From the IMG/VR virus record IMGVR_UViG_3300014043_000277: a DNA stretch of 64,000 nucleotides; one strand, given 5' to 3'. Shown here one piece after another: positions 408 through 64,000 of this stretch (within the stretch, counting starts at the first letter, position 1; the number at the start of each line of letters is the position of its first letter). The position numbers and the translations under genes are program-made. Origin of the DNA: a virus (lineage: Duplodnaviria > Heunggongvirae > Uroviricota > Caudoviricetes). The notes beneath the pieces are model-generated. The model was not told where the DNA came from. It was given only the letters and a program-made list of their open reading frames with translations, and did no database searches.

Positions 408-2864
408 TTATTCCGCTGTCGCGCGGATGAACTGGATGAGAACCGCACGGGCGAACTCGTCCGAACCATCCAGCTTCCGGTCGATTTCGTCCGTTGTCCC
501 GGCTCCGGTATACTGATAGTTCTTATCATCGGTGTTCTTATAATTGCCGGTGACAGTCGCATCGCATTTACCATCAGAGGTTGCATACACTGTTGTCAAT
601 GATGGAATTTCACCATTCGCGCCGGTTCCTTTGAAACCAGCTACGACAGTGGCGCTATTCTTAACGTCATATTCATAGCGAATGTTGAACCTGATTGGCA
701 TTTGCGCATCTGACGCCCATGGCGCTTTAATACGATAATCATTAACTTGCCCGTTCATGATTGCCGTCAATGCGCCTTCGCTTGTCCCTGAACTGTTGCC
801 ATATACGCCAATTTCAGAGGAGGATGGGGATGTCTGCGTGGAAACATGCTTAGTGCTTGTCATGTTCGGATTCAGAACATCCGCATATGATGATGCTCCC
901 TGTGCTTTTCCTTGCAATGACGCGCCATTAGCTTTCTTCCATGGTGTCGCATCCTCATTCCTGATGATTATTGTGCGTTTCGCAAGATTACCATCATATT
1001 TCATGCTTTCCTGCGATTTCGGTGTCCATGCGTCAACCCGGAATGTATTCCAATAATTATTACGGAAGAAAGTCATGTCCGCGCTGACTTTGCTTTCGTC
1101 CTGCACTTTACCTTTCGTGTCAGTCGGTGATTCCTTAACTCCCTGACGGTTCAATGCAGGATCATACTTATTATCGGTTCCATTGCCGACATTGCCTGCA
1201 ATCGCGGCGTTCGATGTTCCTTCCGGGACGCAATCAAACGGGCATTCCTTCGAATATAAGGGGTCTTTCTCACCGCTGTAATTTGAATATAGTTTCATAA
1301 TGGAATGATCATCAGTCCCGGCATAATGCCATCCAGCAAGTTTGCCTTTACTTGTCAGGAATTCAGCCATGCGCGGGAATTCGCCGCGACCTGTGACAGT
1401 GGTTCCATTATCATAGTAAATCGGTGATTGCATGCTTGCCTGGAAACGATTGGTTGAATCCTGTTTGTGTTCAGTGTATCCACCCGTGAAACCGAATTCG
1501 GCATAATAGCTCCGATATGTTTCATAATCCGTTTTATTGCATAGAATATTCAGAATATAATAATGCAATATAGGGAAGAATGAAATGGCATTATATTTTA
1601 CTGTCGTCTGACTTTTAACATTATTCCAGCATCCAGTTGAATATTCCGCGCCAGATGTTTGTCTTCCTGTATCATAGCAATAATATGATAATAGTTTACC
1701 GGTATGCTGCCGATGGTAGCCATTATCAGACTGCCATCCTTCTGGACGCCACCCTGTTACCGGCTCATTACTGTTCCTGTGTTTTCCTGTCATACATGTG
1801 AAATAGTGTCCATCCATGTTAACCGCGCGAGCGCCGCGGCAATTACGATAATGACGGATTACCCGTGTAACTTTACGCCAATACCATTTATTTTCAGCTG
1901 TAGGATATGAAATTGATTGTTTCTTACCGGTTTTCATGATTTTCTCAATGCCGCCTTTCGCCAATGCGGTTGATAGCTCATGATCCGTCGGAATTGTAAT
2001 GGATGTTGTCGTGTTATCAGTCCGTTTGCAAGCAGCTTCAACAGCAGAGGTAAGCTCATCATAATTCTTATTAGTCTCATCCTTGCTTCCAGCCCCATGA
2101 GCGTATTTGGATGATTCCAATGAATCGACAAGTTCGCCATATGGTGTTACAACAACATTACCTCCATCCGCAATATGACCATCACTTGGACTATTCTCTT
2201 TTGAATAACCAGCGACGGTTTTCGGATACCCGTCAGTTCCAGTTGCGGAATTATCAAACTGAATAAAGCATGTATCCAATTGTTTCCTGTTCACAGTGCT
2301 TTTAGAAGCAAGATCGTAAGCCACTTCCGTTGTGTCATACCATCCATAGGAATCAGAGGGTTCCAATCGGCAACCAGCAACCCAGCCGGAATTGCCTGCC
2401 CCGAAATGAGGCACAAGATAATTATAATAATAATCATTCCACCATGGATGACCGCCACCAACGTGTCCGCCGTCCCAGTTGCTACCAAAGGACGGGTTCA
2501 TAATTACGTAGCCGGGAGTAAGAACAACAGGCGGATGTCCTGGACCTCCTCTATAATAAGCATACCATACGACACCTCCCTGACATTGGAAATTATTTCC
2601 TTTTGTTTGAATGAGTTTCGTTATGACTCTATCAGCTTCCGAGCCATTGCCACCTTTTGGATTACCATAAGCGAGCTTATACGCCGGCGAGGACCATATG
2701 CCTCCGCCTCCTCCTGATGATGGTATGCCAGCATATTCTGTTGCATTCGCAGTGTTATCATTTGAATCCGATGACATCATTATCACGCTGGTTGCAATAC
2801 CTGTTATCATTGCAACCAGCGTGAACAATGCTATCAGATGTTTCTTCCTGATTTTCCTTATCAT
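408..2864 (-). CDS. Secreted 818-aa protein with an N-terminal CHAP/NlpC-P60-like peptidase motif; likely peptidoglycan hydrolase
   Basis: The N-terminus is basic then hydrophobic (MIRKIRKKHLIALFTLVAMITGIATSVIMM). The motif NNFQCQGGVVWYAYYRGG is followed about 55 aa later by GHVGGGHPWW, which matches the Cys...His spacing of CHAP domains. The rest of the protein is unassigned. Confidence 0.4.
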   Translation of the reverse strand: MIRKIRKKHLIALFTLVAMITGIATSVIMMSSDSNDNTANATEYAGIPSSGGGGGIWSSPAYKLAYGNPKGGNGSEADRVITKLIQTKGNNFQCQGGVVWYAYYRGGPGHPPVVLTPGYVIMNPSFGSNWDGGHVGGGHPWWNDYYYNYLVPHFGAGNSGWVAGCRLEPSDSYGWYDTTEVAYDLASKSTVNRKQLDTCFIQFDNSATGTDGYPKTVAGYSKENSPSDGHIADGGNVVVTPYGELVDSLESSKYAHGAGSKDETNKNYDELTSAVEAACKRTDNTTTSITIPTDHELSTALAKGGIEKIMKTGKKQSISYPTAENKWYWRKVTRVIRHYRNCRGARAVNMDGHYFTCMTGKHRNSNEPVTGWRPEGWQSDNGYHRQHTGKLLSYYCYDTGRQTSGAEYSTGCWNNVKSQTTVKYNAISFFPILHYYILNILCNKTDYETYRSYYAEFGFTGGYTEHKQDSTNRFQASMQSPIYYDNGTTVTGRGEFPRMAEFLTSKGKLAGWHYAGTDDHSIMKLYSNYSGEKDPLYSKECPFDCVPEGTSNAAIAGNVGNGTDNKYDPALNRQGVKESPTDTKGKVQDESKVSADMTFFRNNYWNTFRVDAWTPKSQESMKYDGNLAKRTIIIRNEDATPWKKANGASLQGKAQGASSYADVLNPNMTSTKHVSTQTSPSSSEIGVYGNSSGTSEGALTAIMNGQVNDYRIKAPWASDAQMPIRFNIRYEYDVKNSATVVAGFKGTGANGEIPSLTTVYATSDGKCDATVTGNYKNTDDKNYQYTGAGTTDEIDRKLDGSDEFARAVLIQFIRATAE

Positions 2865-2877
2865 AATTGTTTCCTTA

Positions 2878-3960
2878 TTATTCCTGATTTATGCTTGTAA
2901 TGAGAAGACGGCGCGGTGACGAATCCGTGTAATTCGGTTTATATGAAATAGTCAACGTTTTATTCACTACAATGGGATTATCCTCATCATTAATGTTCCT
3001 ACCGTAATATGTGATGGGAACAGTACATTTAATGGAATCATCCAATGTGTTCTGAATGTTGAATTCGCATGACATTCTACTCGATTGCGTTCCGATGAAC
3101 AACGAATGATCCCAATCTTTATATTGACCTCCGAATTCATCCTTATTCCAATCCGCGAAAAGCGGGACGAGTTGTTTCGCAGTGTTCAAATCGGATGTGT
3201 TAACTGCTTCTTTCATGTCATCACCGAACATGTCAGTGAAATCTTTCAATGGCAATGATGCATAATCATCCCAATCACCAACTGCCTGCAATGTAGTCCA
3301 ACCGCCATAAACTGGATTTATTATGCGTTCAATATCATCATTAATGAGTGATGACACGTTCTCCGCTGTGAGATATGAATAATTCGGATTTGCGGTGCCA
3401 TCCTCATTATGCGCCTTACTTGCATCATCTGTTAATTTCGGATTAGTATTTGAACTGGCGAATTGTGTTGTCATGTTCTCAGATGACATTATGAGCGCCT
3501 GTGAATCCGCTTCTTTCTTCTGTTCATCGGGCATATCATCATGTGATTGCATGTAATATTCAGGTATTCCTATTTGTTTCATGAATGTTTTCACGATTTC
3601 ATCCGTACCAGCGGATTCAGTTTCTGTTTTAGCGATATTTGATGTGCTGGCATATCTTGAGCCTGTATCCGGCTTGTTCGCTTCATTACGATTATTCTGC
3701 CATATTATGATTCCTGTTGTCATTGCGATTGCAATCAATGCAAACAGCATGATGAGAAGAATATTGCGTTTCCGGTTATCTTTTCTAACCGGTGTATAAG
3801 CGATATCGGATGATTCCATGGAATCATTATCATTTGATTCATCAGCCGGATTATCTTGCGGTCTCCCCCCGGTGATGATTTCATCCTCTTCCGTCAGGAT
3901 GAAATCATCATTCTCATTAGTCATAATAAAACTCCTTCCGTTGATAAAAATGGAAACCAT
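2878..3960 (-). CDS. Hypothetical single-pass membrane protein with an acidic N-terminus
   Basis: Long ORF with a transmembrane segment (ILLIMLFALIAIAMTTGIIIW) after an acidic N-terminal region. The true start may be the internal MTNEND. Confidence 0.4.
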   Translation of the reverse strand: MVSIFINGRSFIMTNENDDFILTEEDEIITGGRPQDNPADESNDNDSMESSDIAYTPVRKDNRKRNILLIMLFALIAIAMTTGIIIWQNNRNEANKPDTGSRYASTSNIAKTETESAGTDEIVKTFMKQIGIPEYYMQSHDDMPDEQKKEADSQALIMSSENMTTQFASSNTNPKLTDDASKAHNEDGTANPNYSYLTAENVSSLINDDIERIINPVYGGWTTLQAVGDWDDYASLPLKDFTDMFGDDMKEAVNTSDLNTAKQLVPLFADWNKDEFGGQYKDWDHSLFIGTQSSRMSCEFNIQNTLDDSIKCTVPITYYGRNINDEDNPIVVNKTLTISYKPNYTDSSPRRLLITSINQE

Positions 3961-4021
3961 TAAAGCAAAATGGCATCAATGCATTCAATTTACTATTAAA
4001 CTATCTATCAAACCATGTGTT

Positions 4022-5028: not shown

Positions 5029-6240
5029 TCATAGCATTATCGCATAATATGATAATATTTCACCGCCATTTTCCGTTTGGAAAGTCGCTGTCCGTGTGAA
5101 ACCGACAGCGCGCAGCAAACCGGCATGTACACTTCCTTCCTCAACCATAACGGCAACCATGTCATACCGATCCTTGTTCTCATCTGATTGCAATATTGAG
5201 AACAGTTCCTTATATAATTCCTGCATTTGCATGAAACCTGCACGGGTTAGTTTCCTGTGTGAGCCTGTCTGGCACATGACTAATGGGATGAACACGACAC
5301 GTTCAGGGCTTATCCATGTCGCGTCTTTCGGTGTGGATGCCGGTGTTGAATACCCTGCGATAGCAGCCATGAGCGCGACAATGTTTCCTTTCGGATTAGT
5401 GAGTTTCAGAAATTGCGCATCAGCTGTCAATGAATCCACATAATCCTTAATGTTGCCCTTGTTCGGCGGGAAACATGATTGCATATATGAAACCCTGTCC
5501 GCGAGACTGGGATGCTCCCATTCCGCGTTCCTATCACAGAAATCAAAAATCTTATTATATTCATTGCCATAACGTTTAACCCTGCCGACGAACGTCAATA
5601 AACCGCCGTTCTGGCGGCGTTTCGGCAATATGGCTGATTGCACTAATGGATGCATGCCTTCAACATCCGCGTCATCCAAATAAGGCAACGGCGAGACAAC
5701 CCTGTTCTTACCGGTTTCAGGGTCGATGTCCCGTAAACGTTTCATGAATGAGAAACCATCACCGAGATCCTGTAATCCTTCCATGAGAAGTTTCCTGCGT
5801 GCATGCAGGTAAATGGTTGCGTTCATTTGTGTGTCAAGGCGAACAACCAAATCCAATCGGCTTGCCTTAGATTGTTTCTCAACGAACTGGGATAGCATTC
5901 TCAAACTTGTTGACATGCTTGAAAACGCTTTTTTCTTCGACGGATCAATAATGCAATAATCGACCGTAGTTATGGTATGCCATATTGCACGGCGTTCACG
6001 GACAATCCGGAACAGGATGGCGGATTTCCAGCTTGTCTCCCCTGTTGTCAGATTGGTTTCACTGCATACAATCGCACGGTAATTATCCTCAATTAGTGAA
6101 TACACGGATGGAATCGGAATGTTCTCCAGATGATAACTGGAAAAATTATGAATCAAATCACGTAAGCGGCGCATGTAATAGATTTTGCTTAAATCCTTAA
6201 CAAGTGTGTATTTTTCACGAATGTCATCAACCATTAACAT
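5029..6240 (-). CDS. Hypothetical protein, 403 aa
   Basis: Long ORF with a GGGAG Shine-Dalgarno before the ATG. No convincing NTPase or reverse-transcriptase motif; the YLDD sits too close to the SP to be an RT motif C. Confidence 0.4.
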   Translation of the reverse strand: MLMVDDIREKYTLVKDLSKIYYMRRLRDLIHNFSSYHLENIPIPSVYSLIEDNYRAIVCSETNLTTGETSWKSAILFRIVRERRAIWHTITTVDYCIIDPSKKKAFSSMSTSLRMLSQFVEKQSKASRLDLVVRLDTQMNATIYLHARRKLLMEGLQDLGDGFSFMKRLRDIDPETGKNRVVSPLPYLDDADVEGMHPLVQSAILPKRRQNGGLLTFVGRVKRYGNEYNKIFDFCDRNAEWEHPSLADRVSYMQSCFPPNKGNIKDYVDSLTADAQFLKLTNPKGNIVALMAAIAGYSTPASTPKDATWISPERVVFIPLVMCQTGSHRKLTRAGFMQMQELYKELFSILQSDENKDRYDMVAVMVEEGSVHAGLLRAVGFTRTATFQTENGGEILSYYAIML

Positions 6241-6453
6241 GGACTCCCATCAAAATAAGCATTCCTTTGATTCATAATATCATTAAAACATGATATTCTC
6301 ATCATATAATCACAACCACATTGCACATGATGGATTCGATGAATGCAGATAAGTATAATGTAGCGCATGAATTATTATTGATTTACCTCATGCTGCTATC
6401 ATCATGTTGTGATTGTTATCCGTTCCATGTATTGATGCCATTTGACAAAGCGA

Positions 6454-6592
6454 ATTTGACTTCCTCCCACGCCTTCAGGCGTGGGATTCCTACGCCGTTC
6501 GCCTTAATGGAGGCTTGCGGTTCGGTGGGTTCCCGCATCATTGGCGTCAGCGTTGCGACTGGCTTGCGCCAGCCTCCGTCTTACATCACCTC
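6454..6592 (-). ncRNA. GC-rich structured element of about 135 nt, copy A; candidate cis-regulatory leader or small RNA
   Basis: GC-rich against an AT-rich background. Nested hairpins include cccacgcc-ttca-ggcgtggg, ctggc-ttgc-gccag and a ggaggc...gcctcc enclosure. A second copy lies at 63863-64000. Confidence 0.4.
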
Positions 6593-6882
6593 TACGGGCG
6601 TTTAACGACTCGGCTAGCCCAGCCGCGTCAAGAATATTCAAAGCAGCCGATAATTATAACGCCTGTATGAACTCATGCTTACTATAATATCATATTCTTT
6701 TGGTTAATGCAAAGTTTGATTTAAAAATATCAGATAACATTCTCGATTGAAAGCACCATATAGAGAGCTGGTTATGCGTGTGTGATTCATCGCCGCCCTG
6801 AAGTGCGGTGTCCTCTCACATGATTGATAGCATAATGATGGCAATGCATTCATTTGATCATTGCCATCATTATTTTAATTTT

Positions 6883-8463
6883 TCAGCTTTTCATAGTTGA
6901 CAGGACTATCGCAAGCGAATCCCTGTAATCATCCGTCAGCATTGCACTCATTGAACTCATGAGCGCGGAACCGAGTGATGATGAATGATTCAACATCATG
7001 AGCATGAGACGGCCATCAATTGTTTTCCCTGATAGGATGGTTGCTTTCACTATAGCATGTTGAATCCGGCTGGATTCGGAATTGCGTTTCAGCATCGCAT
7101 CATCCAAATCCTGTTTCTCATCATTGAATCGTTTCTCCTCGCCGGTTTCAGTCCATTCCAAACCACTCATGTGTTTCATCTGCTGCCATGTTTTCAATTC
7201 CTCATCCAATTGACTGTATTTCTTCTTGTCAATCTGATAATCGGGATAATTCTGATGCATCATGTCGATTATCTGATTGACAGTGTACCATTCACCTTCT
7301 GAATATTTCTTATTCAACGCTTTCACGGCTTTCGCTTTCATGTTCTGGAATTTAGCGAGTTCGTCGCCTATGACGGTTTTTGGAATGTCATTCACACGGT
7401 TATTCGCAATCATTTGCAAATACGCTGCGAATGGACTGCCGCATTTCTCATCATAATGTTGAATCGCCCAGATAATCCATTTATTCAATTGACTGATAAC
7501 ATCTGAATCACCATTGCCATCATCCAAATACACTTTCAATGTTTTATAAGAGGATGGTTGCAGGATGGCTGGCCGCAGTTCACCAGTGGATGAAACCGTC
7601 TGGAAAGTCAAATAGAATCTGACTATCTGATCGATTGCACGATGATCGATTTCATTCAAATCACGCTGTAAACCATTATTGTAAATGTTCGGTCTTCCAG
7701 TCAAGGCGAACACTTTGCCTTTACCGCCGCGTTCCTTCTCATAATCCTCCAGTTTTTTCTTAGCCCAGTCAGCCGAAAGGCAAATGACGGTCCACCGGTT
7801 CTCACCAATGTTAATGAACTGACCGATGTAACGCAGATTATCAAGGATATCATGAATGTCATCACTGTTCACAAGCGTGAATTTCACGCTGCCGAATCTG
7901 TGCCGTTTCACAGGCAGGAAAACCTCCTGTTCGGTGATTGTTTTCCTGCCTATCGTGATAAGTCGCGGATACAGGATGCTCTGAACTATTTGAGCATCCA
8001 ATGGAATATGATGATTATAACGCCATTCATGCAGTTGATCATAAGTCATGCGATATGATTCACTGGAATCAGATGGCACTATCAAATCATTCTCCAGCAT
8101 GTCATCAATGATGTCCTGCACTGGTTCCAAACTGGTTTCATGTGCTATTTTACGTATTTTATCCGCATCATACCATTGTCCATCCGATAGAATGGCTCCA
8201 ATCCGGAAATACAAATCCTTCTCAATGAACTGTTCATCCGTGAACATCGGTTTCGTCCGTTTGAAATCATGCCTTGAACCTGCATAACCACGTTCATTTG
8301 ACATCAATGCAGGCATGTGCGCATCAGATTCATCATCCTGTTCATCTGCAACATTATCCTGTTTGTCAATTATCTCATCATTTTCAGGTTCCTCATACAA
8401 TGAACTCGCCGCGTCATCGGAGTCCCATTCATTCTCATTATTTAATATAACAATACCGTCCAT
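6883..8463 (-). CDS. Hypothetical acidic protein, 526 aa
   Basis: Long ORF with no recognised motifs. A hairpin terminator follows at 6837-6868. Confidence 0.4.
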   Translation of the reverse strand: MDGIVILNNENEWDSDDAASSLYEEPENDEIIDKQDNVADEQDDESDAHMPALMSNERGYAGSRHDFKRTKPMFTDEQFIEKDLYFRIGAILSDGQWYDADKIRKIAHETSLEPVQDIIDDMLENDLIVPSDSSESYRMTYDQLHEWRYNHHIPLDAQIVQSILYPRLITIGRKTITEQEVFLPVKRHRFGSVKFTLVNSDDIHDILDNLRYIGQFINIGENRWTVICLSADWAKKKLEDYEKERGGKGKVFALTGRPNIYNNGLQRDLNEIDHRAIDQIVRFYLTFQTVSSTGELRPAILQPSSYKTLKVYLDDGNGDSDVISQLNKWIIWAIQHYDEKCGSPFAAYLQMIANNRVNDIPKTVIGDELAKFQNMKAKAVKALNKKYSEGEWYTVNQIIDMMHQNYPDYQIDKKKYSQLDEELKTWQQMKHMSGLEWTETGEEKRFNDEKQDLDDAMLKRNSESSRIQHAIVKATILSGKTIDGRLMLMMLNHSSSLGSALMSSMSAMLTDDYRDSLAIVLSTMKS

Positions 8464-15927: not shown

Positions 15928-16262
15928 AAAAAATAATGGTGCCGCCGTCAGTGGTAGCTCATGAACAATGCTTGGTTTTCAAAAAATAATGGTGCCGCCG
16001 TCAGTGGTAGCTCATGAACAATGCTTGGTTTTCAAAAAATGAATCGCCGCCGTCACCGGTCGCTCATGTCAACACTGCTCCCATCCCTGCGGGACACGAG
16101 AACAGGCGCACTCCACGCAGGAGCACAGTGCCACGAGGGCAAGACCGCATGTGAGCACGGTGAGGAAGAGACGATGCGATACAGCTGCGGACGGCAGGCG
16201 TGCTGGTTACTAAAACTCACAGGGGTACTCCCTGCTTGCTTTCAGGTGAACCAGGTCAAAAT
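15928..16262. repeat. Left arm of an imperfect inverted repeat of about 330 bp, partner at 20990-21262
   Basis: The outer iteron block and the inner block aaactcacaggggtactccctgcttgctttcaggtgaaccaggtcaaaata reappear as reverse complement at 20998-21048 and 21203-21262. The GC-rich core of about 140 bp is diverged between the two arms. Confidence 0.7.
15933..16075. repeat. Tandem direct repeat of about 54 bp, iteron-like; two full copies and one degenerate copy
   Basis: ttcaaaaaataatggtgccgccgtcagtggtagctcatgaacaatgcttggttt occurs twice in tandem (15933-15986, 15987-16040). A diverged third copy (gaatcgccgccgtcaccggtcgctcatg) follows. Confidence 0.7.
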
Positions 16263-17219
16263 AAGTCTTCAATAGACACGATTATCAGTATATTAATAGT
16301 TGATATAATGTATGAAATATGTGAATACATTACACTTGGCCGCTTTCAGGTGAACCGCACTTCGGACAAAATCCTGAAAACAATGTTTGCAGGAACGCGA
16401 TAATGTGATATTGTTGATGACAACAGGAACGGAACAAGTATCATCCGATTCCGACATAACAGAAAACAAACCATCCAGTTTACACATGATTAAGTTCATG
16501 TCCACACGGAAAGGAAAACACAGCATGACAGCTGCATGCACATTGACAACAAAGAACAACATTGATGACATTGACATCACGGAAAACCTGATTCTGAAAT
16601 CGGATTCATACAAGTATTCCCACTGGTTGCAGTATCCCACGGGATTGACTTATATGTTCGATTATCTTGAATCACGCGGAACAAACCATAACATTGATAA
16701 GCATGTCATGGATGAAACCCGCTTTTTCGGATTACAATACTATGTTAAAAAGTATCTTTCTCGACCAATCACAATGGGAATGATTAATCAGGCAGAGGAA
16801 ATCATCGCCGGGCAGGGATTGCCTTTCAGCAGGGAAGGATGGGAATTGATTCTGAACGAACACAATGGTTTCATTCCAATCCGCATCCGCGCCGCCAAGG
16901 AAGGCGCATTGATCCCGGCGCATAATGTGTTGATGACCATTGAATCCACTGATGACAGGATTCCATGGATTGTCGGATGGGCGGAAACACTGCTCATGAA
17001 AGTATGGTATCCGACTACTGTTGCGACATTATCATATTCAATTCATGAACTCATTAAGAAATATTTGGATTTTACCAGATTGTTGTGGGAATGCCCCTGC
17101 TTTTTAAGTATGAGGGTTAAAAAGCATAACCTGCTTGCAATTAATAGCATAATTAATATAATCAACCAGCATGATTGATAATGTGATATCATTGAGAACA
17201 ACACCGGGAAGGAGGAAAC

Positions 17220-18590
17220 GTGATGACACCAGAGGAACGCGAGCTGAAGAACAAGCACATTAGCGAGAGCATTAAAGCTACTCGTGAGAAGCGCAAGAAT
17301 CAGCGTGCGATGGTGTTCATCATGAAAATCAACAAGGGTAAACTCACTCATCAGCAGCGGAAACTGCTTAACCGCGTGTTCCTTGAGGCGAAATGGCTCA
17401 GGAATGATATCATTAGCAGTCAGGATGTACTCAAGTATAACCCAGCAATCAGGAAGGTTAAGGTAATCATCCCGGAACCCGCGAAGCAGCGTGACCCGAA
17501 ACTACATGATAGGACTGAGCACCTGATTGCACTCGGTAGTCAAGTCAAACAGGGCGTTCTCAAGCAAGTGAAGGATGACATACGCGGTTTGCATGCTGTT
17601 AGGGTGAAGGGCGGTAAGGTTGGCTCACTGAAATTCACCAGTGAGGTGAACTCAATTAACCTACCGCAGTATGGTATCACGTGGCGGGTTAAGGGAAACT
17701 CTAATAAGATTAAAATACAGGGAATCCCCGGTTACTTGTATGTTAAGAACCTGCAACATGAACTCTTTAACACGCAGTATGATTATAATCTCGCGAACGC
17801 GAAATTATTGCGTCGTTCGGATGGTTATTATATTGCCATAACGGCTTACCTGAGTAATGATGATTATAAGAATAGGAGAATTAATCATGATAGGAAGGTA
17901 ATGAGGAAGGAACCAGCATCGGATACTTACATTGGTATTGATGCTGGTTTGCAGCATCAGTTCATTATGAGCACGAATGGTGAGCCTGTTTACAAGGACG
18001 CATACCGGAGTGAATCGAAGCGGTCTAAACGCGCGAGAGCGCACCAGAAAATGAAGAAGCACGGCTCGAAACGGTATGATAAGTGTAAGCGGGTTATTCG
18101 GCAGGATGGTGAACGCAGGCAAGCATGGAAGAGAATAACAGCGCATCAGTTCGTCCTATGGTTATTAAGCATGTTTGAAACTATTTGTATTCAGGATGAG
18201 CATTTTCAATCATGGTTCAGAGTGAATGGTTGTAAGATGAGCGATGGTATCCTCGGTCGGGTTTACGCTGAATTACGTGGGCTTGCTGGTGAGTCATCGC
18301 CGCGTGTGCTCATGTGTGATGAGTGGCAACCCACGACACAGTATTGCCCGTTCTGCGGGCATTGTACTAAGCATAAACTATCAGAGCGCGTGTTCCATTG
18401 CGCGTATTGCGGTTTTGAAATGGATCGGGATACTCATGCGGCATTGAACATGATTATCCTCGCGCTGGAACCATTGCCTGCTTACTGGTGGCGATTATCT
18501 GAGTTTAAACCACTGGACTCAGTTAAAAGGATTAATAGTGGTTTAACCGTGCGTGAGAGCGCGGTTATTAATCACGCTGGTCTGCATTAA
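17220..18590 (+). CDS. tnpB: TnpB (OrfB), the IS200/IS605-family RNA-guided endonuclease
   Basis: 456 aa. The C-terminal zinc finger CPFCGHCTKHKLSERVFHCAYCGFEMDRDTHAALNM sits next to a RuvC-III region, and the basic HTH-like N-terminus is typical of TnpB. A strong AGGAGG lies 7 nt upstream of GTG-ATG. Confidence 0.8.
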   Translation: MMTPEERELKNKHISESIKATREKRKNQRAMVFIMKINKGKLTHQQRKLLNRVFLEAKWLRNDIISSQDVLKYNPAIRKVKVIIPEPAKQRDPKLHDRTEHLIALGSQVKQGVLKQVKDDIRGLHAVRVKGGKVGSLKFTSEVNSINLPQYGITWRVKGNSNKIKIQGIPGYLYVKNLQHELFNTQYDYNLANAKLLRRSDGYYIAITAYLSNDDYKNRRINHDRKVMRKEPASDTYIGIDAGLQHQFIMSTNGEPVYKDAYRSESKRSKRARAHQKMKKHGSKRYDKCKRVIRQDGERRQAWKRITAHQFVLWLLSMFETICIQDEHFQSWFRVNGCKMSDGILGRVYAELRGLAGESSPRVLMCDEWQPTTQYCPFCGHCTKHKLSERVFHCAYCGFEMDRDTHAALNMIILALEPLPAYWWRLSEFKPLDSVKRINSGLTVRESAVINHAGLH

Positions 18591-18760
18591 ATTGCAGGGA
18601 ATGTGAGCCGATTGGTTACACTGTTTGATACTCTCGTGTCTGATGGTGATTACTGTCCAATCGCGTTTCCCGGCCAGTGAACCCACAGTGTTAACACTTG
18701 TTAATTCTGAGCATTATGCTGAAGCCCCGTGCTTCAGCGCTGGGGTATCTCACAGCGGAT
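18591..18760 (+). ncRNA. Candidate TnpB omega-RNA (right-end element RNA) scaffold
   Basis: Placed by analogy: omega RNAs derive from the 3' end of tnpB and the right end of the element. This region holds stable hairpins including gctgaagc-cccgt-gcttcagc. The extent is not determined. Confidence 0.3.
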
Positions 18761-19448
18761 GATCGAGGTAAGCTACCGTTCATGTTGCAGGATTTCGGTT
18801 ATCGTGGCGTATCCAGTGATGAATCAGCCGGTATTGGCGGAATGGCTCATTTGACTAATTTCAAGGGAACGGATACCGTCGCCGCCGCCGCTTACGCGCG
18901 TAAATACTATCATGCGGACATTGCCGGTGTCAGCATTCCCGCATCCGAGCATTCCACCATAACATCCTGGGGTGCCGGGCGTGAGAGATGGACAGGAAGC
19001 ATTTGAAAACATGATTAACCGGTTCGGGGATTATGCGAATTATGCTTGCGTGTCCGATTCATGGAATTATGATCGCGCATTGCGCACATGGATTTCATTG
19101 AAACCATTGATTGAACGGCATGATGGCATTCTTGTCGTGCGTCCTGATTCCGGTGATAATGTCAGGAATGTGCTTGTAGCATTACACGCATATTGGATGA
19201 GGGATTCGGAAGCACTGTGAACAGCAAGGGCTACAAGGTTCTGAATCATGTCGCCGTCATTCAAGGTGATGGTTGTGATTATGATAGCATTGAACGCATT
19301 CTGCAAGCGACAATGGATGCTGGTTATTCCGTGCAGAATCTTGCATTCGGAATGGGTGGCGCGCTGTTGCAGGGTGGTGATCATTCATCCGTGAACCGCG
19401 ACACACATAAATCTTTCAAGGACGTCATCTAAGAGACAACATCAAGCC

Positions 19449-19516: not shown

Positions 19517-19846
19517 CTAAGTATCAACCATACCACTATCGTAACACTTACACCAATAACAAACGGAATACCTGTGATTAAAAACCAAGCATAGTAAACA
19601 AACACCAAGCCACCAGTAAAACTCAACGCAGTTTGTTGCCCAAAAAAAACTCGTATAAAGACTATCTGTTACGGCTAAAAATCCCGTGATAAGAAAGGGA
19701 ATCATTAAATAAATTCCTAATATTACAAAACTTATATTGCGCCGTACCTTTATATTTTTCATATCAGCAACAATATCGCTAAGCGACATCGGCTCTTCGG
19801 TCAACGTAAACTGCATACCAGCGACTCGCAAAACAGGAGAACGCAC
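19517..19846 (-). CDS. Possible small hydrophobic protein
   Basis: Contains FVILGIYLMIPFLITGFLAV and WWLGVCLLCLV. It sits in a rearranged region and partly overlaps a duplicated gene fragment, so it may be spurious. Confidence 0.2.
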   Translation of the reverse strand: MRSPVLRVAGMQFTLTEEPMSLSDIVADMKNIKVRRNISFVILGIYLMIPFLITGFLAVTDSLYTSFFWATNCVEFYWWLGVCLLCLVFNHRYSVCYWCKCYDSGMVDT

Positions 19847-20083
19847 ACATTACATTGGCTGTAAGCGGCACATCAAATGATGAACGGTGACAATAAAGCC
19901 ATCTGCTTGCATACATCGCAGGCGTGTATGATGGCAGTGTCCTATGCGATTATGATTTCAAAGACATTCAACTGAGCGCATGATAACATTTGATGAATTG
20001 AAATAAAATGAGCGGAACGCAATCACTATTTGCATTCCGCTCATTCGCTTCGGTCAGTCCGCCCTCCCCGATATCAATAATTA

Positions 20084-20902
20084 TCACATTGAAACAGGAA
20101 TGGAAATAATGCCATCCTTGCCTATGCTGAAATATGGTTTCATTCTGTTGATTGTTTTCTTGAATGGTTTCACGTATGCGTCGTGGACATCACGAATGTG
20201 ATTCTGAAAAGCCGTCAGCTCCTTTTCATTATTACGGATTTTCAAATCATGTTCGCTTGTTTCCATTTTAGTGGTTTCCTTGCTGTATTCAACAGGCCAT
20301 CCATCCGCGAGCATGACGGAACCTTTCGCGAGCGCGTTCACTCCGACAAGTCCTATCCTGCCATCAGTGTTCCGATATGCTGATTCTCCTATTTTCATGT
20401 TATTGAATGAGAAATCAGCCTCATCGCTCATGAGCGCAGCCGCAATGTCAAATGACGCGGAGAACGCACACATTACATTGGCTGTAAGCGGCACATCAAA
20501 TGATGAACGGTGACAATAAAGCCATCTGCTTGCATACATCGCAGGCGTGTATGATGCCCGTCCGAGGGAATATGCGATTATCACGTCATCCTCAGTGAAC
20601 ATGCCATCATATGAATCCAGATCCATGAATTTTTCCAATTCCTGCATTTGAATCATGGCACGGAACGCGCCTTCCATTATGTAGTCCTTTTCACTGTTAT
20701 ATAAGGAATTATAAGCATCCTTGCTGATATTTGCGGTTTTAAATGCGGCATTCACGGCGAGTTCAGCCGCCATCCTCATTGATCCGGCTTCCATGCTGTC
20801 AACTTTCTTGCTTAATTCCAATGCCTTCTCATGTACTGTTGTCATGAATTCAATGATATCATACCGAATCAACCATGTCAACATGAAATCAGCATTATTC
20901 AT
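20084..20902 (-). CDS. Hypothetical protein, 272 aa
   Basis: Long ORF with a hairpin at 20010-20043 downstream. An internal 102-bp segment is duplicated at 19836-19937. Confidence 0.4.
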   Translation of the reverse strand: MNNADFMLTWLIRYDIIEFMTTVHEKALELSKKVDSMEAGSMRMAAELAVNAAFKTANISKDAYNSLYNSEKDYIMEGAFRAMIQMQELEKFMDLDSYDGMFTEDDVIIAYSLGRASYTPAMYASRWLYCHRSSFDVPLTANVMCAFSASFDIAAALMSDEADFSFNNMKIGESAYRNTDGRIGLVGVNALAKGSVMLADGWPVEYSKETTKMETSEHDLKIRNNEKELTAFQNHIRDVHDAYVKPFKKTINRMKPYFSIGKDGIISIPVSM

Positions 20903-20989
20903 GTCATGTCCAATTTAATTCTAATTAATACAGCGTAATTCATTCACGCTTTTAGACATGCTGATACTGTTTCGCCAACCGTTTGAAAA

Positions 20990-21262
20990 CGTATTTTAAC
21001 CTGGTTCACCTGAAAGCAAGCAGGGAGTACCCCTGTGAGTTTCAGCAACCGTTAGATTAAGCGCACGGCATCTGATACTGCAATCCTATGCGCCTGCGCT
21101 GGCGCGTTGCCTGTCTGTCCATGCCGTGTGCGCGTGTACAGTGTTTGCGGTATTGCGTGCATGAACGGCCATGAGAGCAGCAAGGGGTGACGGTGGCGAT
21201 TATTTTTTTTGAAAACCAAGCATTGTTCATGAGCGACCAGTGACGGCGGCAATATTATTTTA
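20990..21262. repeat. Right arm of the imperfect inverted repeat, partner at 15928-16262
   Basis: The reverse complement of 21203-21262 matches the iteron unit at about 90% identity. The reverse complement of 20998-21048 matches 16209-16262 almost exactly. Confidence 0.7.
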
Positions 21263-23823: not shown

Positions 23824-24120
23824 TCATTCATTATGATTATCATCAATGAGCGATAGAACAAGATTCGCGAGTGCGTCCGGTAGCGAGTATGGGTCAATTC
23901 CCGGTTCCATGACTATTGGTATGAGCGCGGTGATGACTGCTGTCCGTGTAATCATGTCATCGGTGATTCCGGCTTCCTTGCAGCGTTGTTTCCAATCCTG
24001 TCGGCATGCTTCCAATTGCCTGTTCATGTCCGTATCCGCATGGATTGCCATTAATGCTGGCATGAGTGCTTTCCGGATGTCATTGACCCATTCGTTCATA
24101 TCATTCATATCATTGTTCAT
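23824..24120 (-). CDS. Hypothetical small acidic protein
   Basis: 98-aa ORF whose start overlaps the stop of the upstream GT-C gene. Confidence 0.35.
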   Translation of the reverse strand: MNNDMNDMNEWVNDIRKALMPALMAIHADTDMNRQLEACRQDWKQRCKEAGITDDMITRTAVITALIPIVMEPGIDPYSLPDALANLVLSLIDDNHNE

Positions 24121-37220: not shown

Positions 37221-37267
37221 AGAAAACGATGCGTGACAAACTTGGCAAAAATCACGCATCGTTTTCT
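37221..37267. terminator. Strong hairpin with a 15-bp stem
   Basis: agaaaacgatgcgtga-caaacttggcaaaaa-tcacgcatcgttttct. Confidence 0.6.
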
Positions 37268-37727
37268 CGTGGAGCTGACGGGAATTGCACCCGTGTCTTG
37301 TTCAATCGGTTCATTCCGGATTCACAATCATCCCCGGTTTCCTATTATGTCTTGCATCCGATAGACCGAACCGGGTTTGTCCGTATCGGATGCATGATGC
37401 ATTCAATGTCTCCTGTCATCGGCATGCATCATGCGTTTGACATCGCCGTTTCATATGCGACGTGGAACCGATTATTGAAACGATAATATTCATCGGTTCC
37501 ACGGATTACGCGGCAAGCGCGAAATCAGCCGAGTTAACCTTGGCGTTCATTGTTCGCATGCATCCATTCAAATCGGCGGTTAGCATGCTTCAACCGGATT
37601 GCCGGTATCTGAACTATCAATTGCCAATCGATACTATTCAGCCCCGTGATGCGAACATGATAACACTGATTATCAGTCAGAATGTCATCATGCTTGCATC
37701 GTGCTCATTATCAATAATATCACATTA

Positions 37728-52713: not shown

Positions 52714-54090
52714 TCAAATGCCAAAAGCATTAGTTTTATTCGCTTCATCAGTGTCACGCTTATGTGCGCGTTCCAGATATGGTTCGATTTTCTTCTGCTG
52801 ATCACCGAGAGTCTGAATTGTTTCAGCGAAGGTCTTATTCGCTTCCAACTGGAATGTATCCATTGAATCCATTGTGCGTGCAATGGATTCAAATGCGCGC
52901 TGCAAGGTTTCCGGGCGGACGCCTGATTTCACGGCGCGCTGTTGGATGCGGCTGGAATTCTGTTCAAGCATTTTCGCGTTATTCGCAATGAGATTATTAG
53001 TCGTGTTGTCAATTGCATCCAATGTATCCAACACGAGTTTCTGATTATCCAACGCGGCGGCGACAATGACGGCTGTGCGCAATGCAACCATTGTTGTTGA
53101 TTTAGCACGTTCAACGCCCTTGATGAGCTGTTTGTTGTTCTGCTGTATGACGCTCATGCTCATGTAAGCCTGAATGGTAACAGCGGCTTGTGTTTTCACG
53201 TCCATGCGGCGTTGGCGGACTGCGAACAGCGCATCTTTTTCAAGAGCGTCAGCAAGTTTCATATCCCCGGAATCACGGGCGGACTTAACCTGATTAACAA
53301 CTTCCTTATCAAGTTCTTCCAGTAGAGCATCGGCTTTCTTCAATGTTTCCATGTCTTTCCAGAGCTGTTGCTTCTGCGCGGCAAGTTCGCCATTATCACG
53401 CTGCAATGCATCCTGCCCGGCTGACAGATTATCCATGATTGCTTTCAGTTGGGCATCAGCGGATTCATACTGTTTGAAATAATCATGCACACTTCCGAAA
53501 CCAAGCTTTTTCAGGAAGGACGATTTGAAAGTGTTTGGTTTCGGCGCGATTTTATCAGTGATTTTACGGAGTTCAAGGAGTTCACTGGATACAACGCTTT
53601 TAGCACCGCCTTGCTGCTTATCCGCTTTAACGGACTGGCTCATGAATCGTTCTGTAACATCCGATGTTGAATTGAATGCATCCTGCCCGATTCGTCCGAT
53701 TTCATCCACGGAACGAGCGAAATCATCCGCAGATGGATTCAATGTGGACAGTTGCTTGCTGAAAGCAGTCGCTTTATCATTCAATGAAAGCAAGTCTTTT
53801 GGTTTCAGTTTAATCATTTGATCCAGCTGGTTATCTGATGCGGTTGTGTCCAATGTCGCTGTCGGGTCGGCGGTGTCCACTTGAATGAGCGGTTTCGGAG
53901 CTGAATATACTTTCAATGGTTCTTCTTCCGGTGGAGCCATGAGCACACTCATGTCATCAACGGTTTGAACGTTATTAGTTGTTGAATCGGCCATGTTGTA
54001 ATCCTTCTTGTTAATTTTGACTTCCTCCCCCGCGTTTAAAGCCGAGGGATTCCATGTGAACACTAATAGGACGCCACTCCTGATTCGCAT
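52714..54090 (-). CDS. TelA-like (toxic anion resistance/KlaA family) protein
   Basis: 458 aa, largely predicted coiled-coil. I judge it TelA-like on overall impression only, with no diagnostic motif. Confidence 0.35.
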   Translation of the reverse strand: MRIRSGVLLVFTWNPSALNAGEEVKINKKDYNMADSTTNNVQTVDDMSVLMAPPEEEPLKVYSAPKPLIQVDTADPTATLDTTASDNQLDQMIKLKPKDLLSLNDKATAFSKQLSTLNPSADDFARSVDEIGRIGQDAFNSTSDVTERFMSQSVKADKQQGGAKSVVSSELLELRKITDKIAPKPNTFKSSFLKKLGFGSVHDYFKQYESADAQLKAIMDNLSAGQDALQRDNGELAAQKQQLWKDMETLKKADALLEELDKEVVNQVKSARDSGDMKLADALEKDALFAVRQRRMDVKTQAAVTIQAYMSMSVIQQNNKQLIKGVERAKSTTMVALRTAVIVAAALDNQKLVLDTLDAIDNTTNNLIANNAKMLEQNSSRIQQRAVKSGVRPETLQRAFESIARTMDSMDTFQLEANKTFAETIQTLGDQQKKIEPYLERAHKRDTDEANKTNAFGI

Positions 54091-54663
54091 GACATTACCA
54101 TGATGAAATTAACTCATCATGCAGGTTTCGCTTCAACGCAAACGCCTCAACGCTCATATATAAGTATGGCATATCGGTCTTACAATGCTCCACGAGGGTT
54201 AATCCAACCCTGATTAATCAGAGAACTCACGCTCCTGATAACCATTAACAATGATACCACATGAGATTGCATTATGCAACACTATTATGCTGTGTTCACA
54301 TTATTTTCACAATTTTGCATGCGGTCGCCGCTTAAACTCCATGCTTGAAAGCGGTGGCAAGCGCGGCAAATTTGGTCATTCTTATTGGTTGCGGACAATG
54401 ATAGCACATGTTTCATTGTCCGCAAATATTAGATTTTCAGATTTTCATCCGTCAGATTCAGTTTCTCATGCAGGTATTCACGGGTATGTCGCATCCATTC
54501 GCGCCCCGTTCATCATGTGCTCCGCCATCATGTCAGCTGCTTTTGAAACAGTCTTTTCGTGAAACCAACGACGCTGACGGCAATGAACAGCATGGCTGTG
54601 AGCCATGCGATTATCCTGCCGAATGTTATTTTCCCATGTCAACAATGATATCCCATGAAAACA

Positions 54664-63268: not shown

Positions 63269-63859
63269 TTATTTAGTTTCTTTTGTTAAATTATCAATTG
63301 GATTCATTATGATTGTTGTTTCGCCTGTGTCTGTAATGTTGTCAGTGCCGGTATTCTTTTTCGCTGTGATTTTCCGTGGTTTGCGCGGCATTATGCGTTT
63401 GATTTCAAATTCGGGTTCAGCGCCTCTGAATAATGGTATTGTTTCAATTATCGGCGCGTTGGTCTCCAATCCGAACCATTCAACTGGATGGCTCATTAGT
63501 TTTTTCAATGATTGGAACATTCTTAATATGAAACGGTCATTATCCGGCATTTCAGATTCAGGACTCATTACACGGTGCATGATAACATATTTAACCGTTC
63601 CGATTCCCGCTTTTTCATTCTTGGATGCAAGTTCCATCCATTGAGGTGTAATTTTCGGAATGTCATGAGTCCGAATCATATCTTTCATTATTCGACGCAT
63701 ATATGCTTGTAATTCGTATTGCGGTTGTTTATAACCGAGCCGTATTTTCACATGATGCAGGATGCCTCCATATGATTTCACGGAATATTCACATGCATAT
63801 GGCGTGTCGGATTGAACAATTGAAACAATCCAATACATTCTTGCACGATGATGAACCAT
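63269..63859 (-). CDS. Hypothetical protein
   Basis: The likely start is MVHHRARM at 63859, preceded by GGGAGGAAG. The listed ORF extends to 63949 but runs into the structured repeat. Confidence 0.35.
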   Translation of the reverse strand: MVHHRARMYWIVSIVQSDTPYACEYSVKSYGGILHHVKIRLGYKQPQYELQAYMRRIMKDMIRTHDIPKITPQWMELASKNEKAGIGTVKYVIMHRVMSPESEMPDNDRFILRMFQSLKKLMSHPVEWFGLETNAPIIETIPLFRGAEPEFEIKRIMPRKPRKITAKKNTGTDNITDTGETTIIMNPIDNLTKETK

Positions 63860-63862
63860 GCT

Positions 63863-64000
63863 TTTGACTTCCTCCCACGCCTGAAGGCGTGGGATTCCTA
63901 CGCCGGTCGCCTTAATGGAGGCTTGCGGTTCGGTGGGTTCCCGCATCATTGGCGTTAACGTTGCGACTGGCTTGCGCCAGCCTCCGCCTTACATCACCTC
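63863..64000 (-). ncRNA. GC-rich structured element, copy B, truncated by the window end; directly abuts the start of 63269..63859
   Basis: About 95% identical to copy A. The hairpin loop is flipped (ttca to tgaa), and the substitutions sit in loops or as pairs that preserve the structure. Its minus-strand 3' end, gggaggaag, supplies the Shine-Dalgarno for the downstream ATG. Confidence 0.4.

What the first reader, a model, noticed from the sequence alone, without database searches (positions are those of the whole stretch)
6454..6592. GC-rich structured element of about 135 nt present in two copies, with structure-preserving differences, placed in 5' leaders of minus-strand genes
Copies at 6454-6592 and 63863-64000 are about 95% identical. 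The hairpin cccacgcc-ttca-ggcgtggg in copy A becomes cccacgcc-tgaa-ggcgtggg in copy B, so the loop is flipped while the stem is kept. Other differences fall in predicted loops. That argues for selection on RNA structure and against a simple att-site duplication. Read on the minus strand, copy B ends ...cccacgcctgaaggcgtGGGAGGaagtcaaaagcATG. The Shine-Dalgarno of gene 63269..63859 is therefore partly inside the hairpin's 3' arm. That geometry fits a riboswitch, thermosensor or attenuator. Copy A lies about 220 nt upstream of 5029..6240 with a possible 17-codon uORF between. I could not match it to a riboswitch class from memory.
Basis: seen in the sequence. Interest (0 to 1): 0.65.

Follow-up and report, generated by a model that had tools for sequence, protein, structure and literature searches.

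The report
Guide-RNA end of miniature TnpB transposon
The repeated GC-rich element is not a riboswitch: it is the guide-RNA (omega RNA) scaffold and right end of a small IS605-family TnpB transposon that has lost its gene, which is an already described kind of mobile element.

Summary
The two copies are real: 132 of 138 bases match, and the hairpin loop is flipped between them.

Read on the minus strand, the repeat is the last 147 nt of a tnpB gene plus 48 nt of transposon right end. That is the position of a TnpB omega (guide) RNA. In 97-99.5% identical rumen metagenome contigs, the same sequence ends intact 428-aa tnpB genes.

Window copy A (6456-6826, minus) is a 371-bp internal-deletion derivative. 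It keeps the left end, a promoter-like site, a 12-codon stub, the whole omega RNA scaffold and the right end. The same deletion joint occurs at several unrelated sites.

Insertion is always 3' of G-Y-T-A-T and leaves no target duplication. An empty/filled site pair confirms this.

Copy B interrupts a decayed kup potassium-transporter gene, in frame.

A covariance model built from the repeat hits the 3' end of nearly all of 80 Streptomyces tnpB loci (42% protein identity), with strong covariation.

The riboswitch, thermosensor or attenuator reading does not. PATE-like elements carrying omega RNAs are already described, so this is a new member of a known kind.

The parts
6456..6826 (-). Copy A, complete miniature (PATE-like) IS605-family element, 371 bp. 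It comprises left end, promoter-like site, 12-codon tnpB stub, omega RNA scaffold and right end.
   Evidence: tblastn of full-length TnpB matches 6838-6644 (N-terminal/upstream part) and 6653-6507 (last 49 codons). Boundaries come from aligning independent copies and from 10 LE and RE junctions.
6456..6652 (-).
   Evidence: CM R1 hit 6455-6652, 242.7 bits. Consensus structure. Covariation.
6504..6653 (-). Remnant of the last 49 codons of tnpB plus the stop codon (AALNILDAAGLAES...THRTASLH*), out of frame with the stub.
   Evidence: tblastn gives 94% identity to TnpB residues 436-484.
6638..6676 (-). tnpB start stub: ATG plus 9 native codons (MSSYRRYNYR), then LL-stop. The deletion joint lies between 6648 and 6647.
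   Evidence: Alignment of minis with the full-length element. Sequence read.
6684..6713 (-). Sigma-70-like promoter match (TTTGCA-18-TATTAT, with extended -10 TG) inside the left-end region, pointing toward the omega RNA.
   Evidence: This is a consensus match only: 4 sites were found against 2.6 expected in shuffles.
6791..6810 (-). Left-end subterminal hairpin (CACCGC-ACTTCAGG-GCGGYG), with a loop resembling the right-end hairpin loop.
   Evidence: Read from the alignments.
6827..6831 (-). Target/TAM-like pentanucleotide GCTAT immediately 5' of the left end.
   Evidence: Ten LE junctions, of which about 9 are separate sites, read G-Y-T-A-T. Empty/filled site pair.
6436..6455 (-). Right-end flank (AUUCGCUUUGUCAAAUGGCA), the guide-equivalent portion if the omega RNA is transcribed through the boundary.
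   Evidence: Geometry inferred by analogy with the L005/L001 pair, where the RE flank equals the TAM-adjacent sequence of the empty site.
63864..64000 (-). Copy B: 3' 137 nt of the omega RNA scaffold and right end of a second mini element. It is truncated by the window end and is inserted in the kup coding sequence.
   Evidence: CM R1 hit 63863-64000, 158.6 bits, 5'-truncated. The full mini is seen at the same site in L001, L005 and L006.
63269..63859 (-). 3' fragment of a kup (K+ transporter) pseudogene. It is not a separate gene, and the 'start' ATG is an internal Met codon.
   Evidence: Pfam K_trans_C, E=1.1e-07. Upstream K_trans fragments. The reading frame is continuous across the insertion...EKDIAI|SMVHHRARMYW.
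54017..54374 (-). Third PATE-like element of a different subfamily, 358 bp, sharing only the right-end tip (GGAAUCCC...GGGGGAGGAAGUCAA). It ends 23 nt upstream of the telA ATG.
   Evidence: Filled (window, L001, L005) versus empty (L002/L003) site.

Best explanation
Identity. The repeat is the right end of an IS200/IS605-family, TnpB-encoding insertion sequence, read on the window's minus strand. It comprises the omega RNA (reRNA) scaffold, which overlaps the last 147 nt of tnpB, plus 48 nt up to the transposon boundary. Both window copies belong to a non-autonomous, PATE/MITE-like derivative. In it, one internal deletion removed almost all of tnpB but kept the left end, the putative tnpB promoter and the entire omega RNA scaffold.

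Inferred mechanism, following the established IS605/TnpB model:
1. A Y1 TnpA supplied in trans excises the top strand and inserts it 3' of G-Y-T-A-T, without a target duplication.
2. Transcription through the right end yields an omega RNA whose 3' guide is the flanking DNA.
3. A TnpB made by a full-length copy elsewhere loads this RNA and cuts the vacated site (TAM plus flank).
4. Recombination with a sister copy then restores the element.

Shown here: homology to the tnpB 3' end, the element boundaries, the target motif, the absence of a target duplication, insertion polymorphism among strains, the conserved RNA structure, and an intact TnpB in sister contigs.

Inferred, not shown: transcription, TnpB loading in trans, and current TnpA activity.

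The flipped hairpin loop (UUCA/UGAA) is best explained as loop inversion by template switching at a perfect palindrome. A second hairpin shows the same kind of flip (GCAA/UUGC) in other copies.
For: 1. Position relative to tnpB. The repeat aligns to the tnpB 3' end plus about 48 nt in L002/L003 (tnpB 2729-4015) and in L005/L006. Those TnpBs carry HTH_OrfB_IS605, OrfB_IS605 and Cas12f1-like_TNB domains. The RuvC D/E/D residues and the zinc-finger motifs are visible in the sequence. They match ISDra2 TnpB structures 8H1J and 8BF8 at E=1e-57 over the full length.
2. Miniature derivative. Copy A matches TnpB only at the first ~67 codons of the extended upstream ORF (TnpB's own start retains 10 codons) and at its last 49 residues. 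The same joint occurs at other loci and in 6 contigs found with a joint-spanning pattern.
3. Empty versus filled site. L001 8406|8407 is empty and L005 3507-4993 is filled...GCTAT|CAAAATCATG...GGAAGTCAA|AATTCC..., with no duplication. Ten LE junctions, about 9 separate sites, all follow G-Y-T-A-T, and the RE flanks all differ.
4. Conservation. CM R1 hits the 3' end of nearly all of 80 Streptomyces tnpB loci, mostly at E from 1e-13 to 1e-5 and a few weaker. It also hits two IMG/VR loci with 58%-identical TnpB at 162-165 bits.
5. Covariation. 84% of cells are paired against 34-44% when slid, 45 of 58 pairs show double changes, and 0 of 500 shuffles reach the observed values. An independent MAFFT/RNAalifold alignment gives 10 of 25 pairs with compensatory changes.
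6. Family. Streptomyces relatives carry a divergent Y1_Tnp transposase (E=8e-44).
7. Literature. PATEs that encode omega RNAs acted on in trans by TnpB are described in Meers et al. 2023 (doi 10.1101/2023.03.14.532601).
Against: - No tnpA, and no full-length tnpB of this family, lies in the 64-kb window. No tnpA was found in the six sister loci either. Present-day mobility and TnpB supply in this genome are therefore unproven.
- Expression of the RNA is untested. The promoter match is a weak consensus hit.
- Copy A's flipped loop departs from the UUCA-type loop conserved in the other local copies (all but copy A) and approximately in Streptomyces (CUUCAG/CUUUAG). It could be a disabling change.
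- Alignment A3 was fitted to the model, which inflates the pairing counts.
- The terminal hairpin may be conserved for TnpA binding as single-stranded DNA rather than, or as well as, for RNA.
Confidence: 0.88

Rival explanations
1. Cis-regulatory leader RNA (riboswitch, thermosensor or attenuator) that controls the downstream minus-strand genes by sequestering their Shine-Dalgarno sequence.
For: The element is GC-rich and structured, with structure-preserving differences. GGGAGG lies 11 nt before an ATG at copy B. All three window copies are co-oriented with the gene downstream.
Against: - No Rfam family matches.
- The downstream 'gene' at copy B is a kup fragment, and the ATG is an internal codon.
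- GGGAGGAAGUCAA is the conserved transposon tip, present at all sites and in Streptomyces.
- The downstream genes are unrelated (kup, an ORFan, telA and others).
- Copies are insertion polymorphisms among 97-99.5% identical strains.
- 33 of the 35 large ORFs in the window are on the minus strand, so co-orientation is uninformative.
Confidence: 0.02
2. Inert fossils. The minis are dead remnants of IS605-family elements. The RNA is no longer made or used, and the apparent structure conservation only reflects recent common ancestry.
For: There is no tnpA or cognate tnpB in the window, and no tnpA in the sister loci. Copy A has an inverted loop, and some copies carry stem mismatches, for example L005_full A.A and L003_full A.C. 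The genome shows pseudogenisation of kup and NAMPT.
Against: - Intact full-length tnpB genes with catalytic residues exist in sister strains, 88-96% identical to one another.
- Insertions are polymorphic among near-identical strains, which indicates recent activity.
- Compensatory changes are seen even among the local copies, at 3 pairs.
- The mini retains exactly the full scaffold, including the closing helix 11 nt from the deletion joint.
Confidence: 0.3
3. The conserved hairpins serve only as single-stranded DNA signals for TnpA (subterminal palindromes). They do not function as RNA.
For: IS200/IS605 ends need subterminal hairpins. The left end has a similar hairpin with a related loop. The right-end terminal hairpin lies 13 nt from the boundary.
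Against: Covarying helices extend about 190 nt inward, into the tnpB coding sequence (helices 1, 3, 7 and 11). That is much further in than the subterminal hairpins TnpA recognises (own knowledge of IS608/ISDra2), and it matches the omega RNA position defined for ISDra2 and ISGst elements.
Confidence: 0.07
4. Exapted orphan guide RNA. The mini-borne omega RNAs have been co-opted, in a TldR-like way, to direct a TnpB-family protein to neighbouring genes for regulation.
For: The guide-equivalent flank of the third element covers the telA ribosome-binding region and start codon. Domesticated TnpB regulators are known (PMC10705468, listed).
Against: - The occupied site lacks the TAM. The flank is preceded by GTCAA, not GYTAT.
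- No trans targets were found in the window at up to 3 mismatches next to a GYTAT motif.
- The sister-contig TnpBs keep nuclease residues.
- The insertions are strain-polymorphic rather than fixed.
Confidence: 0.03

Closest known systems
IS200/IS605-family TnpB elements and their omega RNA/reRNA (ISDra2 of Deinococcus radiodurans; ISGst elements of Geobacillus stearothermophilus)
   Same: - TnpB has the same domain set and full-length similarity to ISDra2 TnpB.
- The structured RNA overlaps the tnpB 3' end and stops at the right-end boundary.
- Insertion is 3' of a short motif without a target duplication.
- The RE flank equals the TAM-adjacent target in the empty site.
- A Y1 TnpA is present in relatives.
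   Different: - The motif is G-Y-T-A-T rather than TTGAT (the ISDra2 value is from my own knowledge).
- The RNA sequence has no Rfam model.
- The window copies lack tnpB altogether.
- The closest cellular relatives are high-GC Streptomyces (42% identity), while the host replicon is 43% GC.
PATEs (palindrome-associated transposable elements): gene-less IS200/IS605 derivatives that often still encode omega RNAs (Meers et al. 2023, doi 10.1101/2023.03.14.532601)
   Same: Left and right ends are retained with no protein-coding capacity. There are multiple copies at distinct sites. The omega RNA is retained and would need TnpB in trans.
   Different: Here the derivation is explicit: a single deletion joint (codon 10 fused out of frame to codon -49) is shared by all copies of the subfamily. 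At 371 bp the element is relatively long because it keeps the full ~197-nt scaffold.
Riboswitches and RNA thermometers
   Same: A GC-rich, multi-helix RNA with compensatory changes, sometimes located upstream of a gene.
   Different: No family match. There is no consistent downstream gene. The element is mobile, polymorphic, bounded by transposon ends, and derived from a coding-sequence 3' end.

Membership tests
IS200/IS605 family (IS605 group) | Encodes TnpB (OrfB_IS605 with RuvC and a zinc finger) | tested here: met
   Full-length copies in sister contigs L002/L003 and L005/L006 carry the Pfam domains and match ISDra2 TnpB at E=1e-57. The window copies keep only the first 10 and last 49 codons.
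IS200/IS605 family (IS605 group) | Y1 (HUH) TnpA transposase associated with the element | tested here: inconclusive
   36 upstream ORFs carrying HUH and Y motifs lie divergently upstream of tnpB in the Streptomyces relatives; the one tested in Pfam matches Y1_Tnp at E=8e-44. None was found in the window or in L001-L006 by tblastn. The rest of the genome was not available.
IS200/IS605 family (IS605 group) | No terminal inverted repeats and no target-site duplication; insertion 3' of a specific 4-5-nt motif | tested here: met
   Empty/filled site pair L001 versus L005. Ten LE junctions, about 9 separate sites, all read G-Y-T-A-T|, with differing RE flanks.
IS200/IS605 family (IS605 group) | Subterminal hairpins in both the left and right ends | tested here: met
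   LE CACCGC-ACTTCAGG-GCGGYG and RE CCCACGCC-UUCA-GGCGUGGG. The RE hairpin covaries.
TnpB omega RNA / reRNA | Scaffold overlaps the 3' end of tnpB and ends at the right-end boundary, with the guide taken from flanking DNA | tested here: met
   Scaffold position shown. The RE flank of the L005 element equals the TAM-adjacent sequence of the empty site in L001.
TnpB omega RNA / reRNA | Conserved secondary structure supported by covariation across homologous elements | tested here: met
   84% paired against 34-44% slid, and 45 of 58 pairs with double changes. One search uses an independent alignment. Caveat: alignment A3 was fitted to the model.
TnpB omega RNA / reRNA | Transcribed, bound by TnpB, and directs TAM-dependent DNA cleavage | not testable with these tools
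   Only a promoter-like match was found. No expression or biochemical data are available.
PATE / MITE-like non-autonomous derivative | Both transposon ends, no intact ORF, and multiple copies at unrelated sites | tested here: met
   The 371-bp unit has a 12-codon stub. The same joint occurs at window A, the kup site and L001_a, and in L089, L091, L092, L093 and L094.
Riboswitch / cis-regulatory leader | Match to a known aptamer family, or consistent placement upstream of functionally related genes | tested here: not met
   Rfam gave nothing relevant at gathering or E<=10 thresholds. The flanking genes are unrelated, and one copy lies inside an ORF.
tRNA/tmRNA-derived att repeat of an integrated element | tRNA or tmRNA similarity and an adjacent integrase | tested here: not met
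   ARAGORN found 0 genes. The only Rfam tmRNA hit is at 37267-37645, unrelated to the repeat.

The most novel reading that the evidence does not exclude
The gene-less minis are maintained because their omega RNAs are used in trans by a TnpB-family protein for something other than homing. One example would be TldR-like occupancy near the genes they abut: telA, the 403-aa ORFan and the kup remnant. Alternatively, they mark an unusual, largely ORFan rumen replicon in which an actinobacterial IS605 lineage has recently expanded.
Probability: 0.04. Interest if true: 0.6.

Novelty: new member of a known kind. Interest (0 to 1): 0.2.

Why it matters
The main value is as a correction. A plausible-looking "new riboswitch" is a transposon guide-RNA module, and the apparent gene, start codon and Shine-Dalgarno sequence are by-products of an insertion into a dying kup gene.

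There are some modest positives:
- The finding defines a TnpB/omega RNA lineage with a G-Y-T-A-T target motif, precise boundaries and a covariance model.
- It links rumen-metagenome elements to Streptomyces IS605 relatives.
- It gives a clean example of a PATE whose origin by one internal deletion is traceable, and which keeps the whole guide-RNA scaffold.

Such compact TnpB/omega RNA pairs interest genome-editing tool discovery, but nothing here departs from the known mechanism.

Tried and rejected
- Rfam at gathering threshold on the whole window, and at E<=10 on 6200-6900. Only chance-level hits appeared (HgcC 14.8 bits, ARRPOF 17.6 bits).
- Single-sequence folding of either strand. The z-scores were only -2.3 and -1.7, which is uninformative alone.
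- tRNA/tmRNA scan for an att-site explanation. None was found.
- Megablast of 24 kb of the window against phage genomes. No match.
- GTDB species genomes and IMG/VR, searched for near-identical tnpB to name the host. Best hits were 42-44% (Streptomyces) and 58% (two IMG/VR contigs), so the host remains unidentified.
- PHROGs on 10 ORFans, to test a phage origin. Only an HNH domain matched.
- tblastn with two Streptomyces Y1 TnpAs against the window and sister loci. No hit.
- Search for an empty allele at site A through the exact 403-aa protein. Only identical, filled contigs were returned.
- Search for trans targets of the three guide-equivalent flanks in the window. Only the self sites matched, and those lack the TAM.
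- Group I intron (IStron) test on the second TnpB element. Negative.
- Considered and rejected: REP/BIME or a TIR-type MITE, because there are no terminal inverted repeats and no duplication. Also rejected a group II intron 3' end, because there is no domain V/VI-like Rfam hit and the homology is to tnpB.

Full report
**1. Observation**

The two copies are real. Window 6455-6592 and 63863-64000 share 132 of 138 bases. A 36-nt core occurs exactly twice, against zero expected in shuffles. On the + strand, copy A reads cccacgcc-ttca-ggcgtggg and copy B reads cccacgcc-tgaa-ggcgtggg.

Copy B looks only ~138 nt long because the window ends at 64000. Rfam gives no family for the element at the gathering threshold, nor at E<=10. 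ARAGORN finds no tRNA or tmRNA.

**2. The downstream "gene" at copy B**

The 196-aa ORF at 63269-63859 (minus) matches only the C-terminal domain of Kup potassium transporters (PF22776). I found contigs 97-99.5% identical to the window through the neighbouring ADP-ribosylglycohydrolase.

- In those contigs the region upstream of the repeat holds several K_trans fragments.
- In L005 and L006 it also holds a tnpB gene with OrfB_IS605 and Cas12f1-like_TNB domains.
- The kup reading frame runs straight across the insertion point...EKDIAI | SMVHHRARMYW.

**3. Identity of the repeat**

BLAST places the repeat, in the tnpB sense (window minus strand), over the last ~147 nt of tnpB plus ~48 nt downstream. 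This holds in L002/L003 (tnpB 2729-4015) and in L005/L006.

The evidence that these TnpBs are intact and typical:
- They are 428 aa and carry HTH_OrfB_IS605, OrfB_IS605 and TNB domains.
- The motifs GIDMG, AMETLN, DRDWNAALNIL and CxxC...CxxC are visible in the sequence.
- They match the ISDra2 TnpB structures 8H1J and 8BF8 at E=1e-57 over the full length.

This position is exactly where TnpB omega RNAs are encoded (Meers et al. 2023).

**4. The window copies are miniature derivatives**

tblastn with full-length TnpB hits the copy-A region twice. Window 6838-6644 matches the region upstream of tnpB and its first codons, and 6653-6507 matches the last 49 codons.

Alignment of independent copies shows one shared deletion joint. 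The sequence ATG AGT TCA TAC AGG CGT TAT AAT TAT CG is fused out of frame to GCTGCTTTGAATATT..., giving a 12-codon stub. A pattern spanning this joint finds six contigs in one rumen metagenome.

Copy A is therefore a 371-bp element at 6456-6826 (minus). It contains:
- a left end with a subterminal hairpin;
- a sigma-70-like match, TTTGCA-18-TATTAT, at 6713-6684 (weak evidence);
- the 12-codon stub;
- a ~197-nt scaffold;
- the right end.

**5. Transposition signature**

L001 (empty) and L005 (filled, 1487 bp) give an unambiguous pair. The filled site reads ...ACATGCTAT|CAAAATCATGTGAGAGG...GGGAGGAAGTCAA|AATTCCTGTC..., and the empty site reads ...ACATGCTAT|AATTCCTGTC....

- There is no target duplication and there are no terminal inverted repeats.
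- Across ten LE junctions (about 9 separate sites), the left flank is always G-Y-T-A-T: GCTAT eight times and GTTAT twice.
- The right flanks all differ.
- In the empty site, the motif is followed by exactly the sequence that flanks the right end in the filled site. This is the TAM-plus-guide relationship of the TnpB homing model.

Streptomyces relatives carry a divergent Y1_Tnp gene, which places the lineage in the IS605 group. No tnpA was found in the window or in six sister loci.

**6. RNA structure**

RNAalifold on ten local copies gives a multi-helix fold with three compensatory pairs, even at ~91% identity. I built a covariance model, R1, from these copies.

- R1 hits the 3' end of nearly all of 80 Streptomyces tnpB loci, whose TnpBs are only ~42% identical. 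Most E-values range from 1e-13 to 1e-5, with a few weaker.
- R1 also hits two IMG/VR loci with 58%-identical TnpB, at 162-165 bits.
- On the 83-sequence alignment, 84% of cells pair against 34-44% when partners are slid. 45 of 58 pairs show double changes, and no shuffle out of 500 reaches the observed values. This alignment was fitted to the model, which inflates the counts.
- An independent MAFFT/RNAalifold run on 19 sequences recovers the terminal hairpin, the first hairpin and the central hairpin, with 10 of 25 pairs compensatory.
- A long-range helix pairs the 5' UUGA, 11 nt from the deletion joint, with the terminal UCAA, and it covaries. The mini therefore keeps the whole scaffold.

The four non-loop differences between copies A and B are one G-C to G-U change and three unpaired positions.

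The loop flip is matched by a second flip, GCAA to UUGC, in another hairpin in the L001 copies. Among the local copies only copy A departs from UUCA, and Streptomyces has related CUUCAG/CUUUAG loops. My inference is that the flip is a palindrome template-switch mutation, not evidence of selection.

**7. Mechanism**

Shown: the identity, boundaries, target motif, strain-level insertion polymorphism and conserved RNA fold.

Inferred from the established IS605/TnpB model:
1. TnpA in trans moves the single-stranded element.
2. Read-through transcription makes an omega RNA whose guide is the flank. For copy A this is AUUCGCUUUGUCAAAU..., and for copy B AAGCAUGGUUCAUCAU....
3. TnpB from a full-length copy cuts the vacated GYTAT-plus-flank site.
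4. Recombination restores the element.

The occupied sites are not self-targets, because the flank is preceded by GTCAA rather than by the motif.

**8. Comparison and novelty**

This is an IS200/IS605-family TnpB element together with its PATE-like derivative. Meers et al. explicitly note PATEs that "often encode omega RNAs" needing TnpB in trans.

The specific points here are the G-Y-T-A-T motif, a traceable single-deletion origin, and an actinobacterial-type lineage (element 49% GC, scaffold 55-58%) in a 43% GC, largely ORFan rumen replicon. It is a new member of a known kind.

The riboswitch reading is rejected. The structured-RNA inference is upheld.

**9. Limits**

- The host replicon is unidentified.
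- No expression data are available.
- TnpA and a cognate full-length tnpB were not found inside this window.

Noticed in passing
window 54017-54374 (minus): A third gene-less IS605-type element of a different subfamily, 358 bp. It shares only the right-end tip with the finding's family and inserted after ...AATGAC. It is present in the window, L001 and L005 and absent in L002/L003 (empty site L003 18900|18901). It ends 23 nt before the likely telA start (ATG at 53993), so the listed telA ORF start at 54090 probably lies inside the element.
   Followed up: partly
window 17220-18590 (+), flanks 16387-17178 and 18698-19220: A second, unrelated TnpB (456 aa, PF07282, ~25% identical to the first family) splits a nicotinamide phosphoribosyltransferase gene into NAMPT_N and NAPRTase fragments, and the 3' part is further frameshifted. 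Rfam detected no group I intron, so this is not an evident IStron.
   Followed up: partly
window 63269-64000 and sister loci L001 7491-9033, L005 2921-6549: The kup potassium-transporter gene is a pseudogene, broken by frameshifts and a mini element. In some strains a full-length tnpB element is inserted in the opposite orientation. Together with the NAMPT split, this suggests ongoing gene decay with IS605 expansion.
   Followed up: partly
whole window: Most large ORFs have no Pfam or PHROG match. The recognisable ones are RecG, FolD, a ClpB-like ATPase, PIF1 helicase, Replicase+PriCT_1 primase, HNH proteins, TelA, Band_7 and a Big_2/galactose-binding protein. 33 of the 35 large ORFs are on the minus strand. 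The replicon has no close match in GTDB species genomes, IMG/VR or INPHARED, so whether it is a chromosome, a giant plasmid or a phage is unknown. It is common in rumen metagenomes (54 collection blocks carry the ADP-ribosylglycohydrolase).
   Followed up: partly
window 37267-37645 (minus): A tmRNA match sits just at Rfam's gathering score (47.4 against 47 bits, E=1.3e-15), but ARAGORN does not call it. It may be a divergent or degenerate tmRNA.
   Followed up: no
window 19836-19933 / 20459-20556; 15983-16272 vs 20983-21261: There is a perfect 98-nt direct repeat. Separately, a ~290-nt inverted repeat at 70% identity brackets the ~5-kb segment that holds the split NAMPT gene and the second TnpB.
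   Followed up: no
window 24117-25724, 28066-29691, 29716-31308 (minus): Three ORFan genes of ~530-540 aa share 78-83% identical DNA stretches near their 3' ends, with two of them also matching at internal stretches. They form a local paralogous family of unknown function.
   Followed up: no
window 6816-6891: A perfect 15-bp hairpin (ATAATGATGGCAATG...CATTGCCATCATTAT) overlapping the stop codon (3' end) of the 526-aa gene (6883-8463, minus). Copy A inserted directly after it, at ...CATTATGCTAT|. Rfam's weak miRNA 'hits' there simply reflect this hairpin.
   Followed up: partly
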